From assembly GCA_964519305.1 (NCBI GenBank), contig CAZFHY010000001.1:346132-410131 (forward strand): a stretch of DNA of 64,000 nt, in the 5' to 3' direction. The notes under the pieces are model-generated. The model saw nothing but the letters and a program-made list of their open reading frames with translations, ran no database searches and was not told where the DNA came from. Source of the DNA: Candidatus Undinarchaeota archaeon (GTDB lineage: Archaea > SpSt-1190 > JASMDC01). Positions 2 to 63,965 of this stretch are shown piece by piece. The number at the start of each line of letters is the position of its first letter. Within the stretch, counting starts at the first letter, position 1. The position numbers were made by a program, and so were the translations under genes.

Positions 2-514
2 AGCCTGGTCGGCGGTCTTTTCAACGCGATCAAGAAGTGGCTGACGGGCGAGACGATCGCCGTGAACAGGTACACCGGACCGGGTGTCATCGGTCTCTCG
101 GCCTCGTCCCCCGGGATGATCAAGGAGATCGACCTGGGGCCGGGACAGTCCGTCGACGTGTGCAAGGGCGCGTTCATGGCCGGCGACGTCACCCTCTCCT
201 ACGGCATCGAGCGTGTGTGGAAGGGCATCCTACCCTGGAAGTTCCTGTTCGGCGGCCAGGGTTTCTTCTATCAGAAGCTCACAGGACCCGGCAGGGTCTT
301 CATCGTGGTCAAGGGGGACCTTGTCGAGGCCACCTTGGCCCAAGGACAGAAGATGGACCTCGACCAGGGATACATGGCCTACAAGGACCCGTCTGTCGAG
401 GTCGACCTCACGAGGATCAAGGGATTGCGTAAAGTGTTCATCGGGGGCGAGGGGCTCTTCCTCCTCACATGCACGGGCCCTGGCAAGGTGGGCATCCAGA
501 GCACGGGGTGGTGA
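2..514 (+). CDS. AIM24 (TRAP-like) family protein, 5'-truncated by window edge
   Basis: Frame is open from the window start; GGQGFFYQKLTGPGRV and FIGGEGLFLL..GPGKV motifs are typical of AIM24. Confidence 0.8.
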   Translation, partial: SLVGGLFNAIKKWLTGETIAVNRYTGPGVIGLSASSPGMIKEIDLGPGQSVDVCKGAFMAGDVTLSYGIERVWKGILPWKFLFGGQGFFYQKLTGPGRVFIVVKGDLVEATLAQGQKMDLDQGYMAYKDPSVEVDLTRIKGLRKVFIGGEGLFLLTCTGPGKVGIQSTGW

Positions 515-518
515 TGGG

Positions 519-1151
519 ATGCAGACACGTATCATAGGGCATTTCGCACCGGTGATGGAGATCGACCTCTACCAGGGCGAGACCATCGTGTGCGAGCGCG
601 GTGCCATGTTGTACGAGACGCCGGACATCCACTCAGACGCCGTGCTTGGTATGGGATTCTTCTCCCGTCTGTTCACCGGCGAGTCCGCTGCTCTGGACAA
701 GTACGAGGGTCCCGGAACCGTAGGAATCGCTGCGGGCAAGCCCGGGATGATCAAGGAGCTCGACCTCCAGCCCGGCCAGGCCATCGACATCGCCCACTCG
801 GGTTTCCTTGCCATGGAGCCCACGGTACAGTTCTCTATCTCACTTGCGTCCCACAACCTCGTCAAGCTCATAGGCATGGCCAGCTTCGCCCGGGACAACC
901 TCATCTTCCAGAACCTGACGGGACCGGGAAAGGTGTTCATGCACGTCCACGGGGACTACGTCATTACGTATCTTGAGCAGGGCCAGACCATGATGATCGA
1001 TCAGGGCTATCTAGTGTTCAAGGACCACAGCGTCGAGCTGGAGCTGGTCCGCGTCCACGGCATCGAGAACATCCTCATCGGGGGCGAGGGGCTATTCCTG
1101 CTACAGGTCTCAGGACCGGGGTACGTGGGCATACAGTCGATGAGGGGGTGA
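519..1151 (+). CDS. AIM24 family protein (tandem paralog)
   Basis: ATG at 519 follows a GGTGGTGA SD-like site; ERGAM, FTGES and GGEGLFLLQVSGPG motifs; the ORF-track start at 213 overlaps the previous gene. Confidence 0.8.
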   Translation: MQTRIIGHFAPVMEIDLYQGETIVCERGAMLYETPDIHSDAVLGMGFFSRLFTGESAALDKYEGPGTVGIAAGKPGMIKELDLQPGQAIDIAHSGFLAMEPTVQFSISLASHNLVKLIGMASFARDNLIFQNLTGPGKVFMHVHGDYVITYLEQGQTMMIDQGYLVFKDHSVELELVRVHGIENILIGGEGLFLLQVSGPGYVGIQSMRG

Positions 1152-2205: not shown

Positions 2206-2541
2206 CTACCTTGACTCTTTCCATGCACGCCCGCAGCGCAGACACTTGTAGAACTGTGTCGGCGGCTCGTCGGGGCGCCGGGTCTGTAGCTGCCAGGTCA
2301 TCACGCCGACACGACCGCAGTTACGGCAGCGGACCTTGAGCGTGCCCATTTTCTTAGCCATCTCCTCAACGTCGATGACTGCGATATCCTTATCCCGGTC
2401 GTCAGGGGTCGTGCGCTCCTCCATCTCCTTCCCGCACTTCTCGCAGCGCATTTTCCTGACGTCGCCGAACCCCACGAGCAGCAGATCACCTCCGCAGTCC
2501 GGACAGGTGCCGGCCTTCAGGAGCTTGGGGCGGACGGGCAT
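2206..2541 (-). CDS. tfs: Transcription factor S (TFS / RpoM-like)
   Basis: Two Zn ribbons (CPDC..CEKC; CRNC..CLRC) and the QTRRPDEPPT acidic hairpin motif. Confidence 0.85.
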   Translation of the reverse strand: MPVRPKLLKAGTCPDCGGDLLLVGFGDVRKMRCEKCGKEMEERTTPDDRDKDIAVIDVEEMAKKMGTLKVRCRNCGRVGVMTWQLQTRRPDEPPTQFYKCLRCGRAWKESR

Positions 2542-2618
2542 CGTCGGTGTATGAAGAAGGGAGGTTTATGAGGATTTCGGACTCGAAGCACTGCCCTCTC
2601 GGTCACGGATAGCATCGG

Positions 2619-3423
2619 AAAGAAAGGTTGGGACACAGGGGCGCCTTCCGCGGTACTGTTGCCAGCACCACTTCGGGCGTCCCTGTTGCGGACCCTCCCC
2701 GCCCGCGACCGGAGCCGCGTTCGGTTCTTGACCGCTCCGCCCCGCGACGCCGAAACGCCGCCGGTCGGCCCTGCCGGGCCTCGGGAGCGGGGATGCGCAC
2801 CCGGACGCCGTTTCCGGCACCCTTTGGGCATCCTCGCCGCGGCCTCCCGTTCCCCGGAACGTACGCCCCGGTTCTATTCAGGCCGCGCCGCTGTACCTTC
2901 GCTTCCACGCTGATCCAACGACCCACCGGGTCCCCGATACGCGACACGTCCTCCCGGACACCGTTGCCGGCACCCCTTCGGACACGCCCCGCCACGGCCC
3001 ACCCTTCCCCGCGGCTTGCGCCACGGAGCACCGGGCCGCACCGCCCGCCCGACGCCGAAGCGCCGACCGACCGGACCGGAGCCGGTACCAGGCACACCCT
3101 CCCAAGCACCGTTGCCGGCACCCTTTCAGGCATCCCTCGCCGCGACCGTCGCACCTCCACGGCTTGCGCCGCAGCGGTTGTCGGCCGCACCCCCCGCCAG
3201 CGCCGAAGCGCCGCCGAGCGGCCCGGGACCGGTGCCAGACACACCATCCCAAGCGCCGTTGCCAGCGCCCTTTCAGGCATCCCTTGCAGCGACATCAGCG
3301 CCCGTCAGCTTGCGCGTCAGGGCCCCTCTGTCGCACCGCCCAACCGACGCCGAAGCGTCACCGGACGGCCCGCGACCCCTGCCCGGTTCGCCCCGGAGGG
3401 CGCCTTGACAAAGGCCGGACCCC
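2619..3423 (-). ncRNA. Putative long structured ncRNA of five tandem ~150-nt three-hairpin units
   Basis: Unit spacing of 152/153/148/147 bp; compensatory changes around GNRA and UUCG loops; minus-strand BRE-TATA at 3441-3454; U-rich end (CCUUUCUUU) at 2619-2627. Confidence 0.7.
2630..3378. repeat. Degenerate tandem repeat, 5 copies, period ~150 bp
   Basis: Core GTT(G/T)CC(G/A)GC(A/G)CC begins at 2658, 2810, 2963, 3111 and 3258; CGCCGAA(G/A)CG-containing hairpins at 2745, 3050, 3198 and 3345. Confidence 0.9.
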
Positions 3424-3437
3424 TCGCTATAGTAGTA

Positions 3438-3454
3438 GGAAGTTTAAACCTTCC
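3438..3454. promoter_or_regulatory. Palindromic, probably bidirectional BRE/TATA (GGAAGTTTAAACCTTCC)
   Basis: TTTAAA at 3443-3448 flanked by GGAAG/CTTCC; lies between the repeat array and mutS. Confidence 0.6.
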
Positions 3455-3618
3455 GGATTAAGTGCGCGACGCCACTGCAGGGTGGGTCCGACACGATGTC
3501 AGCGTGGGTGGTGGCGCACGGTAGGGATCTCGTCGGAGCACGGTCGCCAGACGGCTCGGCCTGCCCATCCACAGGACATAAAAGTCTACCTTCCTTCCTG
3601 ACGACGGGAGGGTGACGA

Positions 3619-6306
3619 CTGGGTAAACCAAAGCAAAAGGAGACGCCCATGACCCGGCAGTACCGGGAAATGAAGCGACAGTACCCTGACGCCGTGCTCT
3701 TCTTCCGGATGGGCGATTTCTTCGAGACCTTCGGTGAAGATGCTGTCAAGACCAGCAAGGCTCTCGACATCGTGCTCACCTCCCGCAACCGCGGTTCGCC
3801 CCAAGAGACCAAGCTCGCCGGGTTCCCCCACCACGCGCTGGACAACTACATCGGCCGGATGCTCAGGGCAGGACACAAGATCGCCGTTTGCGAGCAGCTC
3901 GAGGACCCCAAGAAGGCCAAGGGCCTGGTCAAACGGGGCGTGATCCGGGTCTACACGCCCGGTACGCTGATGGAGGGTTTCCTGCTTGACGAGAAGGAGA
4001 ACAACTTCCTGGCCGCCGTGTCCGCCGGTGGCGGTTCGTACGGTCTTGCTGTCATCGACATCTCGACCGGCGAGTTCATGGCCACCCAGTTCGACGGCGA
4101 CGATGCTGCAACCGAGCTCAACGCCGAGCTCGTCCGGCTCGGGCCTGCCGAGATCCTCGTCCCGGAGTGGCTGCGACAGGATGAGGGATTCGTCAGGCTG
4201 GTACGAGTGCAGTCCGTGATGCGTCTCTCGGACTTCCCCGACGCGCACTTCGCCTACGAGCGGGCGTACGACATAGTGCGCGATCACTTCGGCACGCTCA
4301 CTCTTGACGGGTTCGGGCTGGAGGACCGGCGTCTGGCCGTGTCATCGGCCGGAGCCGCGCTGGTGTACCTCCGGGAGACGTTCAAGGGCACCAGTGAGCA
4401 CATCCGCGTGCTCCACCCTTACTCGACCGACGACGTGCTCGTCATCGACGCCGTATCCTCCCGGAACCTGGAGCTGGTGCGCAGCATCCGCACGAACGAC
4501 ACCACGAACACGCTCCTCGAGGTTCTGGACCATTCCACGACACCCATGGGCGGCCGGCTACTACGCCGTTGGCTCCTGCGTCCTTTAACGGATGTGGCCG
4601 CCATCGACCGACGACTGGATGCCGTTGGCGAGCTCCTGGAACAGCAGCTGGTGCGCGACGACCTGCGTGACCTGCTCAGGGGTGTGTCCGACCTGGAGCG
4701 GCTCGCCACACGCATCGTGTCCGGTACCGCCAATGCACGGGACCTCGTCTCGCTACGCGACTCGTTGCTGACGCTCCCGCATATCCGGGAGCAGCTGGCC
4801 GAAAGGTCCGCGGCCATCCTTACCGAGGCCTCCGAGACCCTGCCCGACCTCGTCGACGTCGCCGAGCTGATCTCACGCGCCATCATCGAGTCTCCCCCTA
4901 CCGCCGTGCGGGAGGGGGGCATCATCCGCGAGGGCTTCGATACCGACCTGGACGAACTGCGTGCACTGTCGCGCTCGGGCAAGGACTGGATCGCCACCAT
5001 GCAGGAGACGGAGCGCAAGCGTACGGGCATCAGGTCGTTGCGCGTAGGTTTCAACAAGGTCTTCGGCTACTACATCGAGGTCACACGACCCAATCTAGAG
5101 CTCGTCCCCGACAACTACATCCGCAAGCAGACGCTGGCCAATGCCGAGCGGTTCATCACGGAAGAGCTCAAGGAGTACGAGTCCAAGGTGCTCACGGCCG
5201 AGGAGCGGTCGGTGGCCCTGGAGTACGAACTGTTCTGTCGGGTACGCTCCCAGGTCGCAGAGAGCGCGGCCGATGTACAGGACGCCGCGCAGGTGCTGGC
5301 CCGTATCGACGTGCTGGCGTGCCTCGCCCAGGTCGCCCACGACCGGGATTACAAGCGACCACAGGTGAACGATGGCGACCGCGTCCGCATCCTCGCCGGC
5401 CGCCACCCGGTGGTGGAGCGTACCATAGGTCGGGGCGGTTTCATCCCCAATGACACGACCCTGGACTGCGGCGAGAACCGGTTCATGCTCATCACCGGCC
5501 CCAATATGGCCGGCAAGTCCACTTACCTGCGTCAGGTGGCGCTCATCGTGCTCATGACGCAGATGGGCTCGTTCGTCCCGGTACTGGAGGCCGTCATCGG
5601 CGTAGTGGACCGGATATTCACACGCGTGGGAGCGCACGACGACCTGGCATCGGGTCAGTCGACGTTCATGGTCGAGATGAACGAGACGAGCAACATCCTT
5701 CATAACGCATCGTCGCGCAGCCTAGTCCTTTTGGACGAGATCGGTCGGGGGACGAGCACGTTCGATGGCCTGTCCATCGCCTGGGCGGTGACCGAGTACC
5801 TGCACTCCCACCCGGAGAAGGGGTGCAAGACGCTGTTCGCCACCCACTACCACCAGCTCACCGTGCTCGAGGACGAGCTGGCGGGGCTGCGTAACCTCTC
5901 CATCGCCATAAAGGACGACGGGGGCAGACTGGTGTTCCTGCGCAAGATGGTGGACGGGCCGGCGGACCGCTCCTACGGAATAGAGGTGGCCCAGCTGGCC
6001 GGATTCCCCGAGGATGTGCTGGACCGCGCCCGACAGGTGTTGGGGACGCTGGAGGACCCGGACCATCCCGGGAGCCAGGCCTTGGCCATCGGACCACTGG
6101 CGCGACCACCGCCCCGTGCACCACAGGTGCGGACAGAGGAGCCCGAGCCCCCGCCCAAGCAGGCGTCCCTGGTGGAGTTCACCGCGGGTGCCACGGTCCT
6201 CGACGAGCTGTCGGACCTCAACCTGAACGAGATGACCCCCGTCCAGGCGCTGAACAAGCTGGAGGAGCTCAAGCGTCGGGCACAAGGTGGTGACGATGAT
6301 GACTGA
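3619..6306 (+). CDS. mutS: DNA mismatch repair protein MutS (MutS1)
   Basis: TPMTRQY, FFRMGDFFE, GPNMAGKST Walker A, STFMVEM, DEIGRGT and SYGIEVA motifs; start is either CTG 3619 or ATG 3649. Confidence 0.97.
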   Translation: MGKPKQKETPMTRQYREMKRQYPDAVLFFRMGDFFETFGEDAVKTSKALDIVLTSRNRGSPQETKLAGFPHHALDNYIGRMLRAGHKIAVCEQLEDPKKAKGLVKRGVIRVYTPGTLMEGFLLDEKENNFLAAVSAGGGSYGLAVIDISTGEFMATQFDGDDAATELNAELVRLGPAEILVPEWLRQDEGFVRLVRVQSVMRLSDFPDAHFAYERAYDIVRDHFGTLTLDGFGLEDRRLAVSSAGAALVYLRETFKGTSEHIRVLHPYSTDDVLVIDAVSSRNLELVRSIRTNDTTNTLLEVLDHSTTPMGGRLLRRWLLRPLTDVAAIDRRLDAVGELLEQQLVRDDLRDLLRGVSDLERLATRIVSGTANARDLVSLRDSLLTLPHIREQLAERSAAILTEASETLPDLVDVAELISRAIIESPPTAVREGGIIREGFDTDLDELRALSRSGKDWIATMQETERKRTGIRSLRVGFNKVFGYYIEVTRPNLELVPDNYIRKQTLANAERFITEELKEYESKVLTAEERSVALEYELFCRVRSQVAESAADVQDAAQVLARIDVLACLAQVAHDRDYKRPQVNDGDRVRILAGRHPVVERTIGRGGFIPNDTTLDCGENRFMLITGPNMAGKSTYLRQVALIVLMTQMGSFVPVLEAVIGVVDRIFTRVGAHDDLASGQSTFMVEMNETSNILHNASSRSLVLLDEIGRGTSTFDGLSIAWAVTEYLHSHPEKGCKTLFATHYHQLTVLEDELAGLRNLSIAIKDDGGRLVFLRKMVDGPADRSYGIEVAQLAGFPEDVLDRARQVLGTLEDPDHPGSQALAIGPLARPPPRAPQVRTEEPEPPPKQASLVEFTAGATVLDELSDLNLNEMTPVQALNKLEELKRRAQGGDDDD

Positions 6307-61925: not shown

Positions 61926-63965
61926 ATGCTCCCGATAAAGAAGGTCGTCCTGTACAAGCACGGCGTGGGCTACTTCGAGCGTGCCGGTAAGGTCAAGGGC
62001 TCGCAGCAGCTCTCGTTCACGTTCCGCCAGTCAGAGATCAACGACGTTCTCAAGTCGTTCACCTTCATGGACGCCGGGAAGGGTGCCGTAACCAGCATCT
62101 CCTACGACGCCTTCAAGCCCGTGGCCAAGGCACTGGAGGACGTCTCGTTCCGACTCGACGGCGACGAGAACCTCACCGAACTGGTGGGCCAGCTCAAGGG
62201 CGCAGAGGTGGAGGTGTCCACCGGTGGCAAGACCATCAAGGCCACCGTGACAGGGATCCAGACACGCACCATCGTGGAGAACGACAGGGAGCACGAGCAG
62301 CGCCAGCTGGTGCTGCTGGACGACGCGGGCAAGGTCAGGACCATCCCTTTGGAAGAAATCGCCTGGTTGCGGCCTACCGACGAGACGCTGGCCCGGGAGC
62401 TTCGGTTCTATCTGGATACGGTGTTCGCCGCCACCCGACGCGACAAGAAGACCGTCACGGTGTACACCAAGGGCAAGGACTCGCGTGACGTGGCCTGCGC
62501 CTACGTCGTGGAGTGCCCGGTATGGAAGACATCTTACCGGCTCCTGGTGGATGACAAAGGAAAGCTCACACTGCAGGGCTGGGCCATCGTGGACAACGTC
62601 ATGGACGACGACTGGAAGGACGTGGAGCTGTCGCTGGTCGCCGGCCTGCCGGTGTCCTTCCGCAACGACCTCTACTCGCCCCGGTACGCCTTCCGCCCCG
62701 AGATCGCCGTGAAGCTTGACATGGGCGTTCGGCCGGTGGACATCGAGGACGCCATGGAGGACGACGAGGAGTACGAGGAAGCGGGGGTGCCCTCCGAGAT
62801 CATGATGGAGAAGTGCGCGGACATGGAGATGCCCATGGCCAAGAAGGCATTGGCGTCCACCATGATGATGCGCTCACGAGCGCCTCCGGCACCATCCCGG
62901 GCCGCGATGGCCAAGGAGAGCTTCAAGGCCTCGGCCGTGGGTCGCGACATGGGCGAGGTGTTCGCCTACGACGTGGCCGAGCCGGTGACGGTGCTGCGCA
63001 ACCAGTCGGCCCTGGTCCCCATCCTCCAGCAGGGAGTGTCCGGAAAGAAGATCCTGGTCTACAATGAGACAGGGCGCGCAGACAATCCCATGGCATGCCT
63101 CAAGGTTACCAACGACACCGGGCTAGCCCTCGAGGAGGGGCCGGCCACGGTGCTCGACCAGGGTACCTACGTGGGCGAGACCATGCTCCCGTTCCTCAAG
63201 AAGGACGGCGACCGCACCCTGTCCTACGCCGTCGAGCTGCGGGTGAAGGTCACTAAAGAAGAACGGCACGTCGGCGAGTCCATCCAGGAGGTCCATGTAG
63301 AGAACGGAGCGCTCGTAGGCCTCAGCTACCGGAAGAAGGAGACCATCTACTACGTCAAGGGCGCGGTGGACAAGGAGGTCCCGCTGTTCATCGAGCACCC
63401 CAAGGAGACCGGCTACGATGTCATCAGCGAGGTGCAGCCTACCGAGGAGACCGAAAACTTCCGCAGGTTCAAGCTCCCCGTCAAGCCCAAGACCAAGGCC
63501 ATCAAGCTCATCATCCTGGAACGCAAGCTCGAGCGGACCCGCATCTACGTGCGCAACATGTCCACGAAGGACGTGAAGTGGTACTACGATAACAGTCTCA
63601 TCACCCAGACCGTGGCCGACGAAATCAGGGCCATCCTCGAGCTCTACCGGGACATCGCAAGGCTCGACGAGGAGCGGAAGAAGCTCGACGTGGAGCGAAA
63701 GCGGATCTTCGATCACCAGACACGTTACAAGGAGAACCTCACCTCCCTGGGCACGTCGTCCGGAGAGAACGAAGTGCGACAGATGTACGTGAGCAAGCTC
63801 AAGGTCCAGGAGACGCGTATCGAGGAGATCGAGGCGCGGTTCGAGGCGCTGGAGAAGGATAAACAGAAGATACAAGCCACCATCAACGAGCGGAGCGCGG
63901 GACTGGTCCCCCTGTCACGGAAGGACGCGGGCGCGCTGGCAAAGCTCAGGCGTCTTGTTGCGTAG
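61926..63965 (+). CDS. DUF4139-like protein with C-terminal coiled coil
   Basis: VVLYKHGVGYFER, WKTSYRL, LQGWAIVDN...DW..VELSL and SALVP motifs. Confidence 0.8.
   Translation: MLPIKKVVLYKHGVGYFERAGKVKGSQQLSFTFRQSEINDVLKSFTFMDAGKGAVTSISYDAFKPVAKALEDVSFRLDGDENLTELVGQLKGAEVEVSTGGKTIKATVTGIQTRTIVENDREHEQRQLVLLDDAGKVRTIPLEEIAWLRPTDETLARELRFYLDTVFAATRRDKKTVTVYTKGKDSRDVACAYVVECPVWKTSYRLLVDDKGKLTLQGWAIVDNVMDDDWKDVELSLVAGLPVSFRNDLYSPRYAFRPEIAVKLDMGVRPVDIEDAMEDDEEYEEAGVPSEIMMEKCADMEMPMAKKALASTMMMRSRAPPAPSRAAMAKESFKASAVGRDMGEVFAYDVAEPVTVLRNQSALVPILQQGVSGKKILVYNETGRADNPMACLKVTNDTGLALEEGPATVLDQGTYVGETMLPFLKKDGDRTLSYAVELRVKVTKEERHVGESIQEVHVENGALVGLSYRKKETIYYVKGAVDKEVPLFIEHPKETGYDVISEVQPTEETENFRRFKLPVKPKTKAIKLIILERKLERTRIYVRNMSTKDVKWYYDNSLITQTVADEIRAILELYRDIARLDEERKKLDVERKRIFDHQTRYKENLTSLGTSSGENEVRQMYVSKLKVQETRIEEIEARFEALEKDKQKIQATINERSAGLVPLSRKDAGALAKLRRLVA

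What the first reader, a model, noticed from the sequence alone, without database searches (positions are those of the whole stretch)
2619..3423. Five-unit tandem structured RNA array (~800 nt) between tfs and mutS
Seen: five degenerate units spaced 152/153/148/147 bp. On the minus strand each unit reads as three hairpins that keep pairing while the sequence changes. H1 has a UUCG loop: UGACGC-UUCG-GCGUCG (3345-3360), CGGCGC-UUCG-GCGCUG (3198-3213), CGGCGC-UUCG-GCGUCG (3050-3065) and CGGCGU-UUCG-GCGUCG (2745-2760); one unit has a different hairpin here. H2 has a basal stem GCGACA/UGUCGC, GCGGCCG/CGGUCGC, GCGGCCC/GGGCCGU or GCGGCCU/AGGCCGC, with apical GCAA loops (3310, 3164, 3016) or GUAC/UCCG. 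H3 has an apical GNRA loop in all five units (GCAA x4, GAAA x1; e.g. GUGGUGCUG-GCAA-CAGUACCGC vs GGGCGCUG-GCAA-CGGCGCUU) above a purine-rich (Y)GAA/GG(G/A)A internal loop. Stable tetraloops and G-U wobbles fit only the minus strand. A BRE-TATA (GAAGGTTTAAAC) lies ~20-25 nt upstream of the 5' end and a U-rich tract ends the array. I do not recognise it as tRNA, 5S, SRP, RNase P, C/D or H/ACA RNA. Inference: a novel modular ncRNA, which could be a multivalent protein scaffold or sponge, a precursor processed into ~150-nt RNAs, or a tandem regulatory leader for tfs.
Basis: partly seen in the sequence, partly recalled or inferred. Interest (0 to 1): 0.9.

Follow-up and report, generated by a model that had tools for sequence, protein, structure and literature searches.

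The report
Tandem-module structured RNA gene, archaeal
A stretch of about 800 bases in an uncultivated marine archaeon is a real, previously undescribed non-coding RNA gene made of five similar 150-base modules, each folding into three very stable hairpins; what it does is unknown, and its build suggests a platform that binds several copies of some partner.

Summary
Window 3423-2617 (minus strand) carries five degenerate ~150-nt units. Each has three hairpins, and 14 of the 15 hairpins are capped by GNRA or UNCG tetraloops. No Rfam family matches.

A same-genus genome has the orthologous array with seven units, and two more variants are visible only as mis-called antisense "proteins". No match turned up in 15 other genomes of the phylum or in 448 genomes of six other archaeal phyla.

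Selection acts on the minus-strand RNA fold:
- 114 G-U versus 4 A-C cells among 478 pair cells.
- 31 of 42 stem pairs that differ between orthologs stay paired on the RNA strand, against 3 of 42 on the other strand.
- The array is 91% identical between species, against 79% at tfs third codon positions.
- The minus-strand fold has z = -3.3; the plus strand has z = +1.0.
- There is no codon signal in any frame.

A TATA/BRE like those of the genome's tRNA genes precedes the array, a T-rich tract ends it, and homology between the two genomes starts at the promoter. Contigs from four seawater metatranscriptome runs cover only the array.

The function is unknown. A multivalent scaffold or sponge is the best guess, and the tfs-leader reading is disfavoured. 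It is a new RNA family with a narrow distribution.

The parts
3442..3453 (-). BRE/TATA-like promoter element GAAGGTTTAAAC
   Evidence: Located. The motif [AG]A[AG]GGTTTAAA occurs only 5 times in the 3.63 Mb genome, once before tRNA-Asn. Similar AAAGGTTTAAA-type elements precede several tRNA genes. Homology with G001 begins about 20 nt upstream of it, near 3475, and is lost further upstream.
3381..3423 (-). Predicted transcript start (about 3423, inferred from TATA distance) and 5' leader with two small hairpins, one UCCG-capped
   Evidence: Sequence and MFE. 25 of 31 positions of 3423-3393 are identical in G001. The UCCG loop is UUCG in G001. The start site is not mapped.
3228..3380 (-). Unit 1: H1 3368-3336 (UUCG), H2 3334-3289 (GCAA), H3 3282-3239 (GCAA)
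   Evidence: Alignments A2 and A3, RNAalifold, coordinates. CM hit at 119.8 bits. Ortholog R1 in G001 is 87.5% identical.
3081..3227 (-). Unit 2: H1 3221-3190 (UUCG), H2 3188-3142 (GCAA), H3 3135-3092 (GCAA). Its H3 holds the junction where G001 has two extra units.
   Evidence: CM hit at 119.1 bits.
2933..3080 (-). Unit 3: H1 3074-3041 (UUCG), H2 3039-2994 (GCAA), H3 2987-2944 (GCAA)
   Evidence: CM hit at 111.7 bits. Ortholog R5 is 94.6% identical.
2780..2932 (-). Unit 4: H1 2921-2888 (GGAA), H2 2886-2839 (GUAC), H3 2833-2791 (GAAA)
   Evidence: CM hit at 118.9 bits. Ortholog R6 is 94.8% identical.
2628..2779 (-). Unit 5: H1 2768-2737 (UUCG), H2 2735-2688 (UCCG), H3 2682-2639 (GCAA) with closing strand running to about 2632
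   Evidence: CM hit at 103.6 bits. Ortholog R7 is 90.1% identical.
2617..2625 (-). T-rich tract UUUCUUUCC, candidate archaeal termination signal at the end of the array
   Evidence: Located. The 28 nt from 2639 to 2612 are 28 of 28 identical in G001, while the next 70 nt are 74% identical. One RNA-library contig ends at 2626; contigs cannot prove an RNA end.
2563..2580 (-). Conserved BRE/TATA-like element CCGAAATCCTCATAAACC, candidate own promoter of the TFS paralog (context)
   Evidence: Located. It differs by one base from G001 inside an otherwise 74%-identical spacer. It lies about 30 nt before the ATG at 2541.
2206..2541 (-). Divergent TFS paralog (111 aa), the only conserved neighbour of the array (context)
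   Evidence: Pfam Zn_ribbon_TFIIS 3.6e-15. TFS_arch 55.1 bits, below the 64.75 cut-off. 32% identical to the second TFS on contig C2. Same position in G001.

Best explanation
Window 3423-2617, minus strand, is an independent gene for a structured non-coding RNA of a family not yet described. It is about 0.8 kb here and about 1.1 kb in a congener.

Shown:
- It consists of 5 (or 7) old, diverged copies of a ~150-nt module.
- Each module keeps the same three hairpins. H1 is a capped rod. H2 and H3 each have a basal stem, a purine-rich internal loop, an apical stem and a tetraloop.
- Evolution preserves pairing on this strand only.
- The array diverges more slowly than neutral proxies.
- It does not behave like coding sequence.
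- Sequence from it is present in RNA libraries.

Inferred:
- It is transcribed from the TATA/BRE at 3453-3442 and ends at the T-rich tract 2625-2617.
- It works as a multivalent platform. Each module would offer the same conserved purine-rich internal loops and GNRA-capped H3 to several copies of one partner, most likely a protein, which it scaffolds or titrates.

The number of modules can change by unequal recombination (7 to 5) without loss of the gene. That fits a valency-type function better than one unique global fold.

My odds are about 0.8-0.85 that it is a functional structured RNA gene, and about 0.35 that the scaffold/sponge mechanism is right. The partner is unknown. The confidence figure given for this explanation refers to the first claim, a functional structured RNA gene.
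For: Structure and strand.
- Minus-strand MFE z -3.3 (0 of 20 shuffles as good), against plus strand z +1.0.
- Twelve units (5 + 7): 43 consensus pairs and 91.8% of 511 cells paired, against 86.3% in shuffles and 40-51% when slid. 13 pairs have changes on both sides (0 of 500 shuffles reach this) (similar on A2).
- 325 Watson-Crick, 114 G-U, 4 A-C and 35 other cells of 478.
- 14 of 15 apical loops here are GNRA or UNCG. H1 and H2 swap between the two classes, while H3 is always GNRA.

Orthologs.
- Of 42 stem pairs that differ between the window and G001, 31 stay paired on the RNA strand, 4 are lost, 5 gained and 2 are neither. On the other strand only 3 stay paired.
- 32 of 37 substitutions that hit a standard pair keep it, against 27.6 expected given the substitution types (P = 0.006). 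T<->C changes number 25 against 8 A<->G.
- Changes inferred from two further variants keep 19 of 22 and 19 of 24 changed pairs.

Constraint.
- The array is 91.1% identical (740 of 812). The tfs third codon position is 79.3% and the spacer 74.3%.
- Unpaired columns change at 0.062 per site, paired columns at 0.115.
- Orthologous units are 88-95% identical and paralogs 61% on average, so the modules are old and individually kept.

Not coding.
- Substitution phases are 23/28/21 (p = 0.58).
- The synonymous-to-nonsynonymous ratio is about 1:2 in all six frames, against 21:10 in tfs.
- All three antisense frames are open in G001 and nearly so in the window, a composition effect.
- No Pfam match.
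- Unit lengths of 147/148/153/152 shift the frame.

Gene signals and expression.
- The promoter motif is rare (5 occurrences in the genome) and shared with a tRNA gene.
- Homology with G001 starts at the promoter although the upstream genes differ.
- Five contigs of 164-290 nt with 0 differences, from 4 seawater metatranscriptome runs of one study, all lie within 2626-3394.

Single locus.
- The CM finds only this array in the genome.
Against: - Only two genomes give DNA, and they are close relatives (91% identical). Most support comes from G-C/G-U exchanges. Double-sided changes are few: 2 between orthologs and 13 of 43 pairs among paralogs.
- The T<->C excess could partly reflect transcription-linked mutation bias. 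The conditional test that allows for this is only moderately significant (P = 0.006).
- Paralogous units share ancestry, so the shuffle controls overstate significance, as the tool itself warns.
- Expression rests on assembled contigs from RNA libraries of a single study. They show neither strand nor ends nor level.
- The transcript ends are inferred, and the T-tract (T3CT3) is weak.
- Nothing identifies a binding partner. The H3-only model finds no similar hairpin elsewhere in the genome (next best E = 0.19).
- The family is confined to one genus as far as searched, so the function may be minor or lineage-specific.
Confidence: 0.8

Rival explanations
1. The array is a precursor. The long transcript would be cut between modules into ~150-nt RNAs that act singly, as polycistronic snoRNA or tRNA clusters and type III antitoxin arrays do.
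For: Modules are regular in length (142-153 nt) and self-contained, with three local hairpins and only a weak 4-bp closing helix. Each module is individually conserved between species and differs from its neighbours, mainly in the H2 internal-loop sequences, as expected if modules had separate specificities.
Against: No recognisable processing signal is seen at unit borders in the sequence: no tRNA-like element and, by eye only, no bulge-helix-bulge motif. The RNA-library contigs of 205 and 290 nt cross unit borders, but contigs cannot show cleavage. The H2 pockets have no H/ACA-like bipartite match to the organism's 16S or 23S beyond shuffles.
Confidence: 0.15
2. The array is a long structured 5' leader or cis-regulator of the downstream TFS paralog, with read-through of the T-tract tuned by the fold or by a bound factor.
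For: It lies on the same strand, ends about 75 nt before the tfs ATG, and this adjacency is the only conserved neighbourhood between the two genomes. The T-tract is short (T3CT3), so read-through is plausible.
Against: A conserved BRE/TATA-like element at 2580-2563 sits about 30 nt before the ATG within an otherwise diverged spacer, which suggests tfs has its own promoter and a near-leaderless mRNA. The array's 3' tail and T-tract are 28 of 28 conserved, as for a terminator. With only two close genomes, conserved adjacency carries little weight. A leader of 0.8-1.1 kb with variable module number has no known counterpart (recalled).
Confidence: 0.1
3. It is a single large RNA that folds or self-assembles into a defined three-dimensional object through tetraloop-helix contacts, comparable to the large ornate bacterial RNAs ROOL, GOLLD and OLE (recalled).
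For: Every H3 ends in a GNRA loop, with three different sequences that are all GNRA across 12 units. There are many G-C helices and purine-rich internal loops that could act as receptors. The size is 0.8-1.1 kb.
Against: The loss or gain of two whole modules between species is hard to reconcile with one obligate global fold. No conserved long-range pairs or pseudoknots were found; the MFE long-range helices are not supported by comparison. No tool here tests tertiary contacts.
Confidence: 0.1
4. It is a degenerate tandem DNA repeat with no RNA function, and its hairpins are by-products of GC-rich palindromic repeat units.
For: It is a single locus, restricted to one genus. Copy number changes by unequal crossover. 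The genome has many other tandem repeats.
Against: The other repeats lie inside long ORFs at average GC, unlike this one at GC 0.75 with skew -0.25. The strong strand asymmetry of pairing (114 G-U against 4 A-C), the pairing-preserving substitutions, the divergence below neutral proxies and modules that stay alike in fold at 61% identity are not expected of neutral DNA.
Confidence: 0.05
5. It encodes a Pro/Arg-rich repeat protein on the plus strand (ORF 2628-3461, 277 aa), or a protein on the minus strand (2603-3295, 230 aa).
For: The ORFs are open across the array in both genomes. Gene callers have deposited two such 'proteins', P0004 and P0005.
Against: All three antisense frames are open in G001 and nearly so in the window, a composition effect. 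There is no Pfam family. There is no codon periodicity, and the synonymous-to-nonsynonymous ratio is about 1:2 in every frame against 21:10 in tfs. Unit lengths of 148 and 152 shift the frame, so the 'repeats' would not be protein repeats.
Confidence: 0.02

Closest known systems
CsrB/RsmZ-type protein-sponge RNAs of bacteria (recalled, not from a call)
   Same: A non-coding RNA built of many similar hairpin modules. Module number varies between species. Its presumed role is to bind several copies of one protein.
   Different: Those modules are short hairpins presenting GGA in the loop and bind CsrA. Here the modules are 150 nt with three hairpins and closed tetraloops, the conserved single-stranded parts are internal loops, and the genome has no CsrA (0 matches to PF02599). 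No Rfam CsrB/Rsm model matches.
NORAD-type repeat-unit long non-coding RNAs of eukaryotes (recalled)
   Same: A long RNA composed of diverged tandem units of a few hundred nucleotides, each keeping the same local motifs. It acts by multivalent protein binding.
   Different: Different domain of life, no sequence relation, and the partner here is unknown.
Type III toxin-antitoxin antitoxin RNA arrays (ToxI, CptI). The listing of PMC4627078 was seen; the rest is recalled.
   Same: The order promoter, tandem RNA repeats, terminator-like tract, downstream protein gene on the same strand.
   Different: Those repeats are about 36 nt, near-identical, cut by the toxin and form pseudoknots. Here the units are 150 nt and 61% identical, and the downstream gene is a TFS-like zinc-ribbon protein, not a ToxN/AbiQ endoribonuclease.
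Archaeal H/ACA guide sRNAs (recalled)
   Same: H2 resembles a guide hairpin: lower stem, large two-sided internal loop, upper stem. Multi-hairpin forms of H/ACA RNAs exist.
   Different: There is no conserved ACA after the hairpin (only unit 5 has ACA). No K-turn or K-loop is seen in the upper stem, which is closed by a tetraloop. The pockets have no bipartite match to 16S or 23S beyond shuffles.
Large ornate bacterial ncRNAs (OLE, GOLLD, ROOL; recalled)
   Same: A large, highly structured, GNRA-rich non-coding RNA of unknown function found by sequence analysis.
   Different: Those have one complex non-repetitive fold. None matches here (Rfam). This RNA is a tandem of simple modules in an archaeon.

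Membership tests
Any Rfam 15 family | Covariance-model score at or above the family's gathering score | tested here: not met
   There were 0 matches at gathering thresholds in the whole window. With E up to 10, only chance-level hits appeared. Prion_pknot scored 16.7 against 39 bits, outside the array. ybhL scored 20.8 against 50 on G001's array. M23 scored 17.3 against 41.2 on unit 2 alone.
tRNA / tmRNA | Cloverleaf detected by ARAGORN | tested here: not met
   0 genes in the window.
SRP RNA / RNase P RNA (divergent copy) | The genome lacks a canonical copy and the array matches the model | tested here: not met
   Canonical Archaea_SRP (146.5 bits, contig C42) and RNaseP_arch (135 bits, contig C13) lie elsewhere in the genome. 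The array matches neither.
H/ACA guide sRNA | ACA box 3' of the hairpin | tested here: not met
   The linkers after H2 read UGCAAGG, GGCGAGG, GGCGGGG, GGCGAG and AACAGG. ACA is present in unit 5 only.
H/ACA guide sRNA | Bipartite pocket complementarity to rRNA around a target U | tested here: not met
   The best matches of all 12 pockets to the organism's own 16S and 23S are reached by 21 to 200 of 200 shuffled pockets. tRNAs were not tested.
H/ACA and C/D sRNPs (L7Ae clients) | K-turn or K-loop: 3-nt bulge followed by tandem sheared G-A pairs | tested here: inconclusive
   By eye only. The H3 3' strand ends GGGA next to the basal stem, as the non-bulged strand of a K-turn would, but the 5' strand has one nucleotide (U) instead of three before GA. 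The consensus is recalled and no motif tool was available.
Type III TA antitoxin array | Near-identical short repeats followed by a ToxN/AbiQ/CptN endoribonuclease gene | tested here: not met
   The units are 150 nt and 52-75% identical. The downstream gene is TFS-like.
CsrB/Rsm sponge | CsrA encoded in the genome; GGA in hairpin loops | tested here: not met
   PF02599 has 0 matches in a genome that is 99.8% complete. The apical loops are closed GNRA or UNCG tetraloops.
CRISPR or TIGR guide arrays | Short identical repeats alternating with unique spacers, and an associated Cas or Tas gene nearby | tested here: not met
   There is no repeat-spacer organisation. The neighbours are AIM24, two hypothetical proteins, TFS, MutS and MutL. 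The abstract start of the TIGR-Tas paper was seen only in the listing.
Repeat-protein gene | One conserved frame, excess of synonymous change, period a multiple of 3 | tested here: not met
   as given under the rival explanations.
Archaeal stable-RNA gene (generic) | BRE/TATA about 25 nt before the start, oligo-T at the end, conserved between species | tested here: met
   The ends are inferred from sequence and have not been mapped.

The most novel reading that the evidence does not exclude
The RNA is an archaeal multivalent regulator of the transcription machinery. Its modules would bind and titrate RNA polymerase or the adjacent divergent TFS paralog, so that RNA and paralog form one module tuning transcript cleavage or elongation. 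It would be a functional counterpart of bacterial 6S RNA, which has not been found in Archaea (recalled). The only support is the conserved adjacency to a TFS paralog that falls below the equivalog cut-off while a canonical TFS exists elsewhere. Nothing excludes it.
Probability: 0.07. Interest if true: 0.9.

Novelty: categorically new. Interest (0 to 1): 0.7.

Why it matters
Large structured non-coding RNAs of unknown function are rare in prokaryotes, and very few come from Archaea. I found no precedent for an archaeal RNA built of tandem, individually conserved 150-nt structured modules, either in Rfam or in the listings of four literature searches.

If it is a multivalent scaffold or sponge, it would show that this regulatory design, known from bacterial CsrB and eukaryotic NORAD (recalled), also arose in Archaea. 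The natural 5-unit and 7-unit versions would make a ready experiment on valency.

The practical limits are that the host is uncultivated and the family is known from only four sequence variants of one genus. A side benefit is that it flags two database 'proteins' (P0004, P0005) as probable mis-annotations of an RNA gene.

Tried and rejected
Search for more homologs.
- A BLAST-type search of 41 relatives found only G000 and G001 (2 of 41).
- The unit model R1 found matches in 2 of 17 genomes of the phylum. In six other archaeal phyla it found 0 of 2, 133, 6, 151, 5 and 151 genomes. Above 40 genomes the tool uses stricter filters.
- The exact H3 pattern gave 35 stretches in genome contigs. Only L024 (= G001) was real by the model; the other 34 gave only weak or partial hits with E of 0.0019 or more.
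- The H1+H3 pattern gave 54 stretches in metagenome contigs. Only L078 and L104 were real, and both score identically to G001. The other 52 gave nothing at E up to 0.001.
- The viral-contig scan gave 0 stretches.
- Protein searches with the antisense ORFs gave only P0004 and P0005.

Ideas tested and dropped.
- H/ACA-like guide.
- CsrA sponge.
- H3-like hairpins elsewhere in the genome that could mark a natural target of a titrated protein: none, next best E = 0.19 at window 62069-62112.
- Other arrays of this kind in the genome: the other tandem repeats are in long ORFs.
- Weak R1 hits at G000:C16:40757-40908 (E 0.47) and G001:C95:119586-119698 (E 0.34) were taken as noise and not examined.

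RNA runs.
- Parts of the laid stretch 2400-3700 without contig cover (tfs end, 3395-3700, and small gaps inside the array) prove nothing.
- Contig ends at 3095/3096 and 3104/3105 in two runs each were considered as processing sites. I dropped this because contigs cannot show ends.

Literature.
- One search was a badly chosen search and gave nothing useful.
- No paper was opened. Only search listings (titles and abstract starts) were seen.
- All statements about CsrB, NORAD, ToxI, H/ACA, K-turns, 6S RNA, ROOL/GOLLD/OLE and archaeal promoters or terminators are recalled.
- Supplementary files were not consulted.
Full report
WHAT IS THERE

Read on the minus strand, window 3423-2617 holds five tandem units. 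The motif at the tip of the third hairpin recurs at 3263, 3116, 2968, 2815 and 2663, a spacing of 147/148/153/152. The units align at 75% mean column identity.

The region stands out from its surroundings. GC is 0.71-0.74 against about 0.60-0.65, and the plus-strand GC skew is -0.2 to -0.3, so the minus strand is G-rich.

It lies between a TFS-like gene (2541-2206, minus strand) and mutS-mutL (3649 onwards, plus strand).

ANATOMY OF A UNIT

RNAalifold on 12 units (5 here, 7 in a relative) gives the same three hairpins in two different phasings of the unit.
- H1 is an extended hairpin of about 10-12 bp with a small G-rich internal loop.
- H2 has a 6-7 bp basal stem, a large internal loop that is purine-rich on both sides, a 7 bp apical stem and a tetraloop.
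- H3 has an outer and a basal stem, a GAA(A/G) / GGG(A/U) internal loop, an 8 bp apical stem and a GNRA loop.
- H3 extends about 12 nt further 3' than I first cut it.
- A 4-bp helix that would close each unit competes with a small local hairpin between units and is not settled.

In the window, 14 of 15 apical loops are GNRA or UNCG. H1 is UUCG x4 and GGAA x1. H2 is GCAA x3, UCCG x1 and GUAC x1. H3 is GCAA x4 and GAAA x1. In the relative, H3 also shows GUGA, and H2 shows GCGA. So H1 and H2 exchange one stable cap for another, while H3 keeps the GNRA class.

A 43-nt leader with two small hairpins precedes unit 1.

IS IT MORE THAN CHANCE, AND WHICH STRAND?

The minus-strand RNA folds at -481.6 kcal/mol, against -446.9 +/- 10.5 for dinucleotide shuffles (z -3.3, 0 of 20). 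The plus strand gives -342.6 against -350.9 (z +1.0, 16 of 20 shuffles as good).

On the 12-unit alignment:
- 91.8% of 511 pair cells are standard pairs, against 86.3% after shuffling partners and 40-51% after sliding them.
- 13 of 43 pairs show changes on both sides (0 of 500 shuffles reach this) (A2 gives 11 of 40, with 15 of 500 shuffles reaching it).
- The tool warns that related sequences can beat the shuffles without structure, so I looked for tests that do not rest on them.
- Of 478 cells, 325 are Watson-Crick, 114 G-U, 4 A-C and 35 other. The same pairs would be only 68.8% paired on the other strand.

RELATIVES

- A DNA search of 41 relatives hit only the window's genome and one same-genus genome, G001. 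G001's contig is titled 'Candidatus Undinarchaeales archaeon' in the public record.
- G001 has seven units. W1-W5 correspond to R1, R2, R5, R6 and R7. R3 and R4 are extra, and the junction lies inside the H3 of unit 2.
- Orthologous units are 88-95% identical. Paralogous units average 61% (52-75%). The modules are therefore old, are not homogenised, and are kept one by one.
- A covariance model of the unit finds only this one array in each genome. It finds nothing in the other 15 genomes of the phylum, nor in 448 genomes sampled from six other archaeal phyla.
- Exact-pattern scans of the species-representative genomes and of the JGI metagenome collection gave, besides chance hits, only G001 and two contigs that score identically to it. 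The viral collection gave none.
- Searching the spurious antisense ORF as a protein turned up two deposited 'proteins', P0004 and P0005. They are colinear, without gaps, with the antisense frame of G001's array at 86% identity, and are 86% identical to each other. They stand for two further variants with the 7-unit layout.
- With three of the four variants in the 7-unit layout and R3 and R4 as diverged as any other units, the 5-unit form here is most simply a deletion by unequal recombination (inference).

EVOLUTION BETWEEN ORTHOLOGS

Over the aligned RNA the two genomes are 91.1% identical (740 of 812). Third codon positions of the adjacent tfs are 79.3% identical, and the spacer between array and tfs is 74.3% identical. 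The last 28 nt of the RNA, including the T-tract, are identical.

Homology begins about 20 nt upstream of the TATA element and is lost beyond it. The upstream genes differ: mutS/mutL here, an AbiEi/AbiEii pair in G001.

Fate of stem pairs:
- Of the 42 stem pairs that differ, 31 remain standard pairs on the RNA strand (29 by a one-sided change through G-U, 2 by a double change), 4 are lost, 5 gained and 2 unpaired in both.
- Read on the other strand, only 3 remain paired and 21 are lost.
- Stem substitutions that hit a standard pair are mostly T<->C (25) rather than A<->G (8).
- Transcription-linked mutation bias could produce such a skew, so I permuted each substitution type among stem sites with the same base. 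32 of 37 keep the pair against 27.6 expected (P = 0.006).
- Single-base changes inferred from P0004 and P0005 keep 19 of 22 and 19 of 24 changed pairs, with 0 and 2 lost. These two sets overlap in ancestry and see only changes that alter the antisense amino acid.
- Unpaired columns change half as often as paired ones (0.062 against 0.115 per site). This points to the loops and linkers as the sequence-specific parts.

NOT A PROTEIN GENE

Long ORFs cross the array, but all three antisense frames are open in G001 and nearly so in the window, as expected of a C-rich strand with few T and A. The ORF products match no Pfam family. Unit lengths of 148 and 152 shift the frame, so the 'repeats' would not repeat in the protein. 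The 72 substitutions fall 23/28/21 on the three phases (p = 0.58). The synonymous-to-nonsynonymous ratio is about 1:2 in all six frames, against 21:10 in tfs.

GENE SIGNALS AND EXPRESSION

The element GGAAGGTTTAAAC resembles what precedes several tRNA genes of this genome, such as AAAGGTTTAAAA before tRNA-Asn and TAGGTTTAAAAG before tRNA-Glu. The motif [AG]A[AG]GGTTTAAA occurs only five times in 3.63 Mb. A start near 3423 and an end in the T-tract are inferred from these signals and have not been mapped.

The run index listed 19 RNA runs that hold part of the stretch; the best held 0.23 of its words. I laid the four best, all from one seawater study. Five contigs of 164-290 nt, with no differences from the window, cover 2626-2830, 2899-3095, 2912-3096, 3104-3267 and 3105-3394, all inside the array.

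Contigs show presence in an RNA library. They do not show strand, ends or level, and I could not lay a silent control stretch. I count this as modest support for expression.

WHAT IT IS NOT

- No Rfam family and no tRNA.
- The genome has its own SRP RNA, RNase P RNA and rRNA operon elsewhere.
- H2 looks like a guide pocket, but there is no conserved ACA, no K-turn in the upper stem by eye, and no bipartite match to 16S or 23S beyond shuffles.
- There is no CsrA in the genome.
- The downstream gene is not a type III toxin.
- The other tandem repeats of the genome lie in long ORFs at ordinary GC.
- An H3-only model finds no similar hairpin elsewhere in the genome.

HOW IT MOST LIKELY WORKS

Shown: a conserved RNA fold made of repeated modules, a single locus, and promoter-like and terminator-like signals conserved with it.

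Inferred: an independent, probably abundant stable RNA.

For the mechanism I commit, at about 0.35, to a multivalent platform. Each module would present the same purine-rich internal loops (H2, H3) and GNRA-capped H3 to several copies of one partner.

Three observations favour this over the alternatives:
- Module number differs (5 against 7) while each remaining module stays under constraint.
- Loops and linkers are more conserved than stems.
- There are no conserved long-range pairs that would define one global fold.

Rivals:
- A precursor cut into unit RNAs (0.15).
- A leader for the TFS paralog (0.10). This is disfavoured by a conserved TATA-like element at 2580-2563 just before tfs and by the fully conserved T-tract.
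- A single folded or self-assembling object (0.10).
- Neutral repeat DNA (0.05).
- A protein gene (0.02).

COMPARISON AND NOVELTY

In design it is closest to protein-sponge RNAs such as CsrB and to repeat-unit RNAs such as NORAD (both recalled). It is a member of neither. It matches no curated family, and four literature searches (listings only) showed no archaeal RNA of this build.

I rate it a new family and, as far as I can tell, a new kind of archaeal RNA. The caveats are that its function is unknown, its distribution is one genus (four sequence variants), and its host is uncultivated.

VERDICT

Confidence that it is a functional structured RNA gene is about 0.8. Interest is 0.7.

Noticed in passing
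window 2206-2541 (-); G000:C2:151597-151713 (L108 1489-1842, -): The genome has two TFS-like genes. The one beside the array is the divergent one: 32% identical to the other, and TFS_arch 55.1 bits against a cut-off of 64.75. It still carries the acidic DE pair. The copy on contig C2 scores 87.7.
   Followed up: partly
L107 6289-7868 (G001:C95, just upstream of the array's promoter): In G001 an AbiEi/AbiEii toxin-antitoxin pair sits where this genome has mutS-mutL. Synteny breaks exactly at the array's promoter.
   Followed up: partly
whole genome G000 and its phylum: The genome is 3.63 Mb (G001 is 3.8 Mb), about 60% GC and 99.8% complete. The other 15 species genomes of its phylum are 0.6-1.2 Mb. 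G001's record is titled Candidatus Undinarchaeales. It is either a large-genome lineage beside a reduced (DPANN-type) group or a doubtful placement.
   Followed up: no
proteins P0004 (314 aa, ENA) and P0005 (303 aa, Logan): These two database 'proteins' without Pfam domains are translations of the strand antisense to homologous arrays. They are probably gene-calling artefacts.
   Followed up: yes
G000:C18:69293 (+), C11:123108 (-), C11:1544 (-): These are three further copies of the rare promoter-like motif [AG]A[AG]GGTTTAAA. What they drive was not examined. The sequence after the C18 copy does not obviously start an ORF.
   Followed up: no
G000: C6:10286-10562, C6:77293-77671, C6:96026-96485, C16:102592-103227, C23:39783-40240, C24:24063-24493, C8:144365-147194, C9:8252-12000 and others: There are many tandem repeats with periods of 147-150 nt and other multiples of three, inside ORFs of 446-2064 codons. 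The genome seems rich in large repeat proteins.
   Followed up: partly
window 213-1151 (+); L107 10575-11405 and 11841-12896 (-): AIM24-family genes lie two to three genes downstream of tfs in both genomes, and G001 has two copies. Between them and tfs lie small ORFs without Pfam or NCBIfam matches.
   Followed up: no
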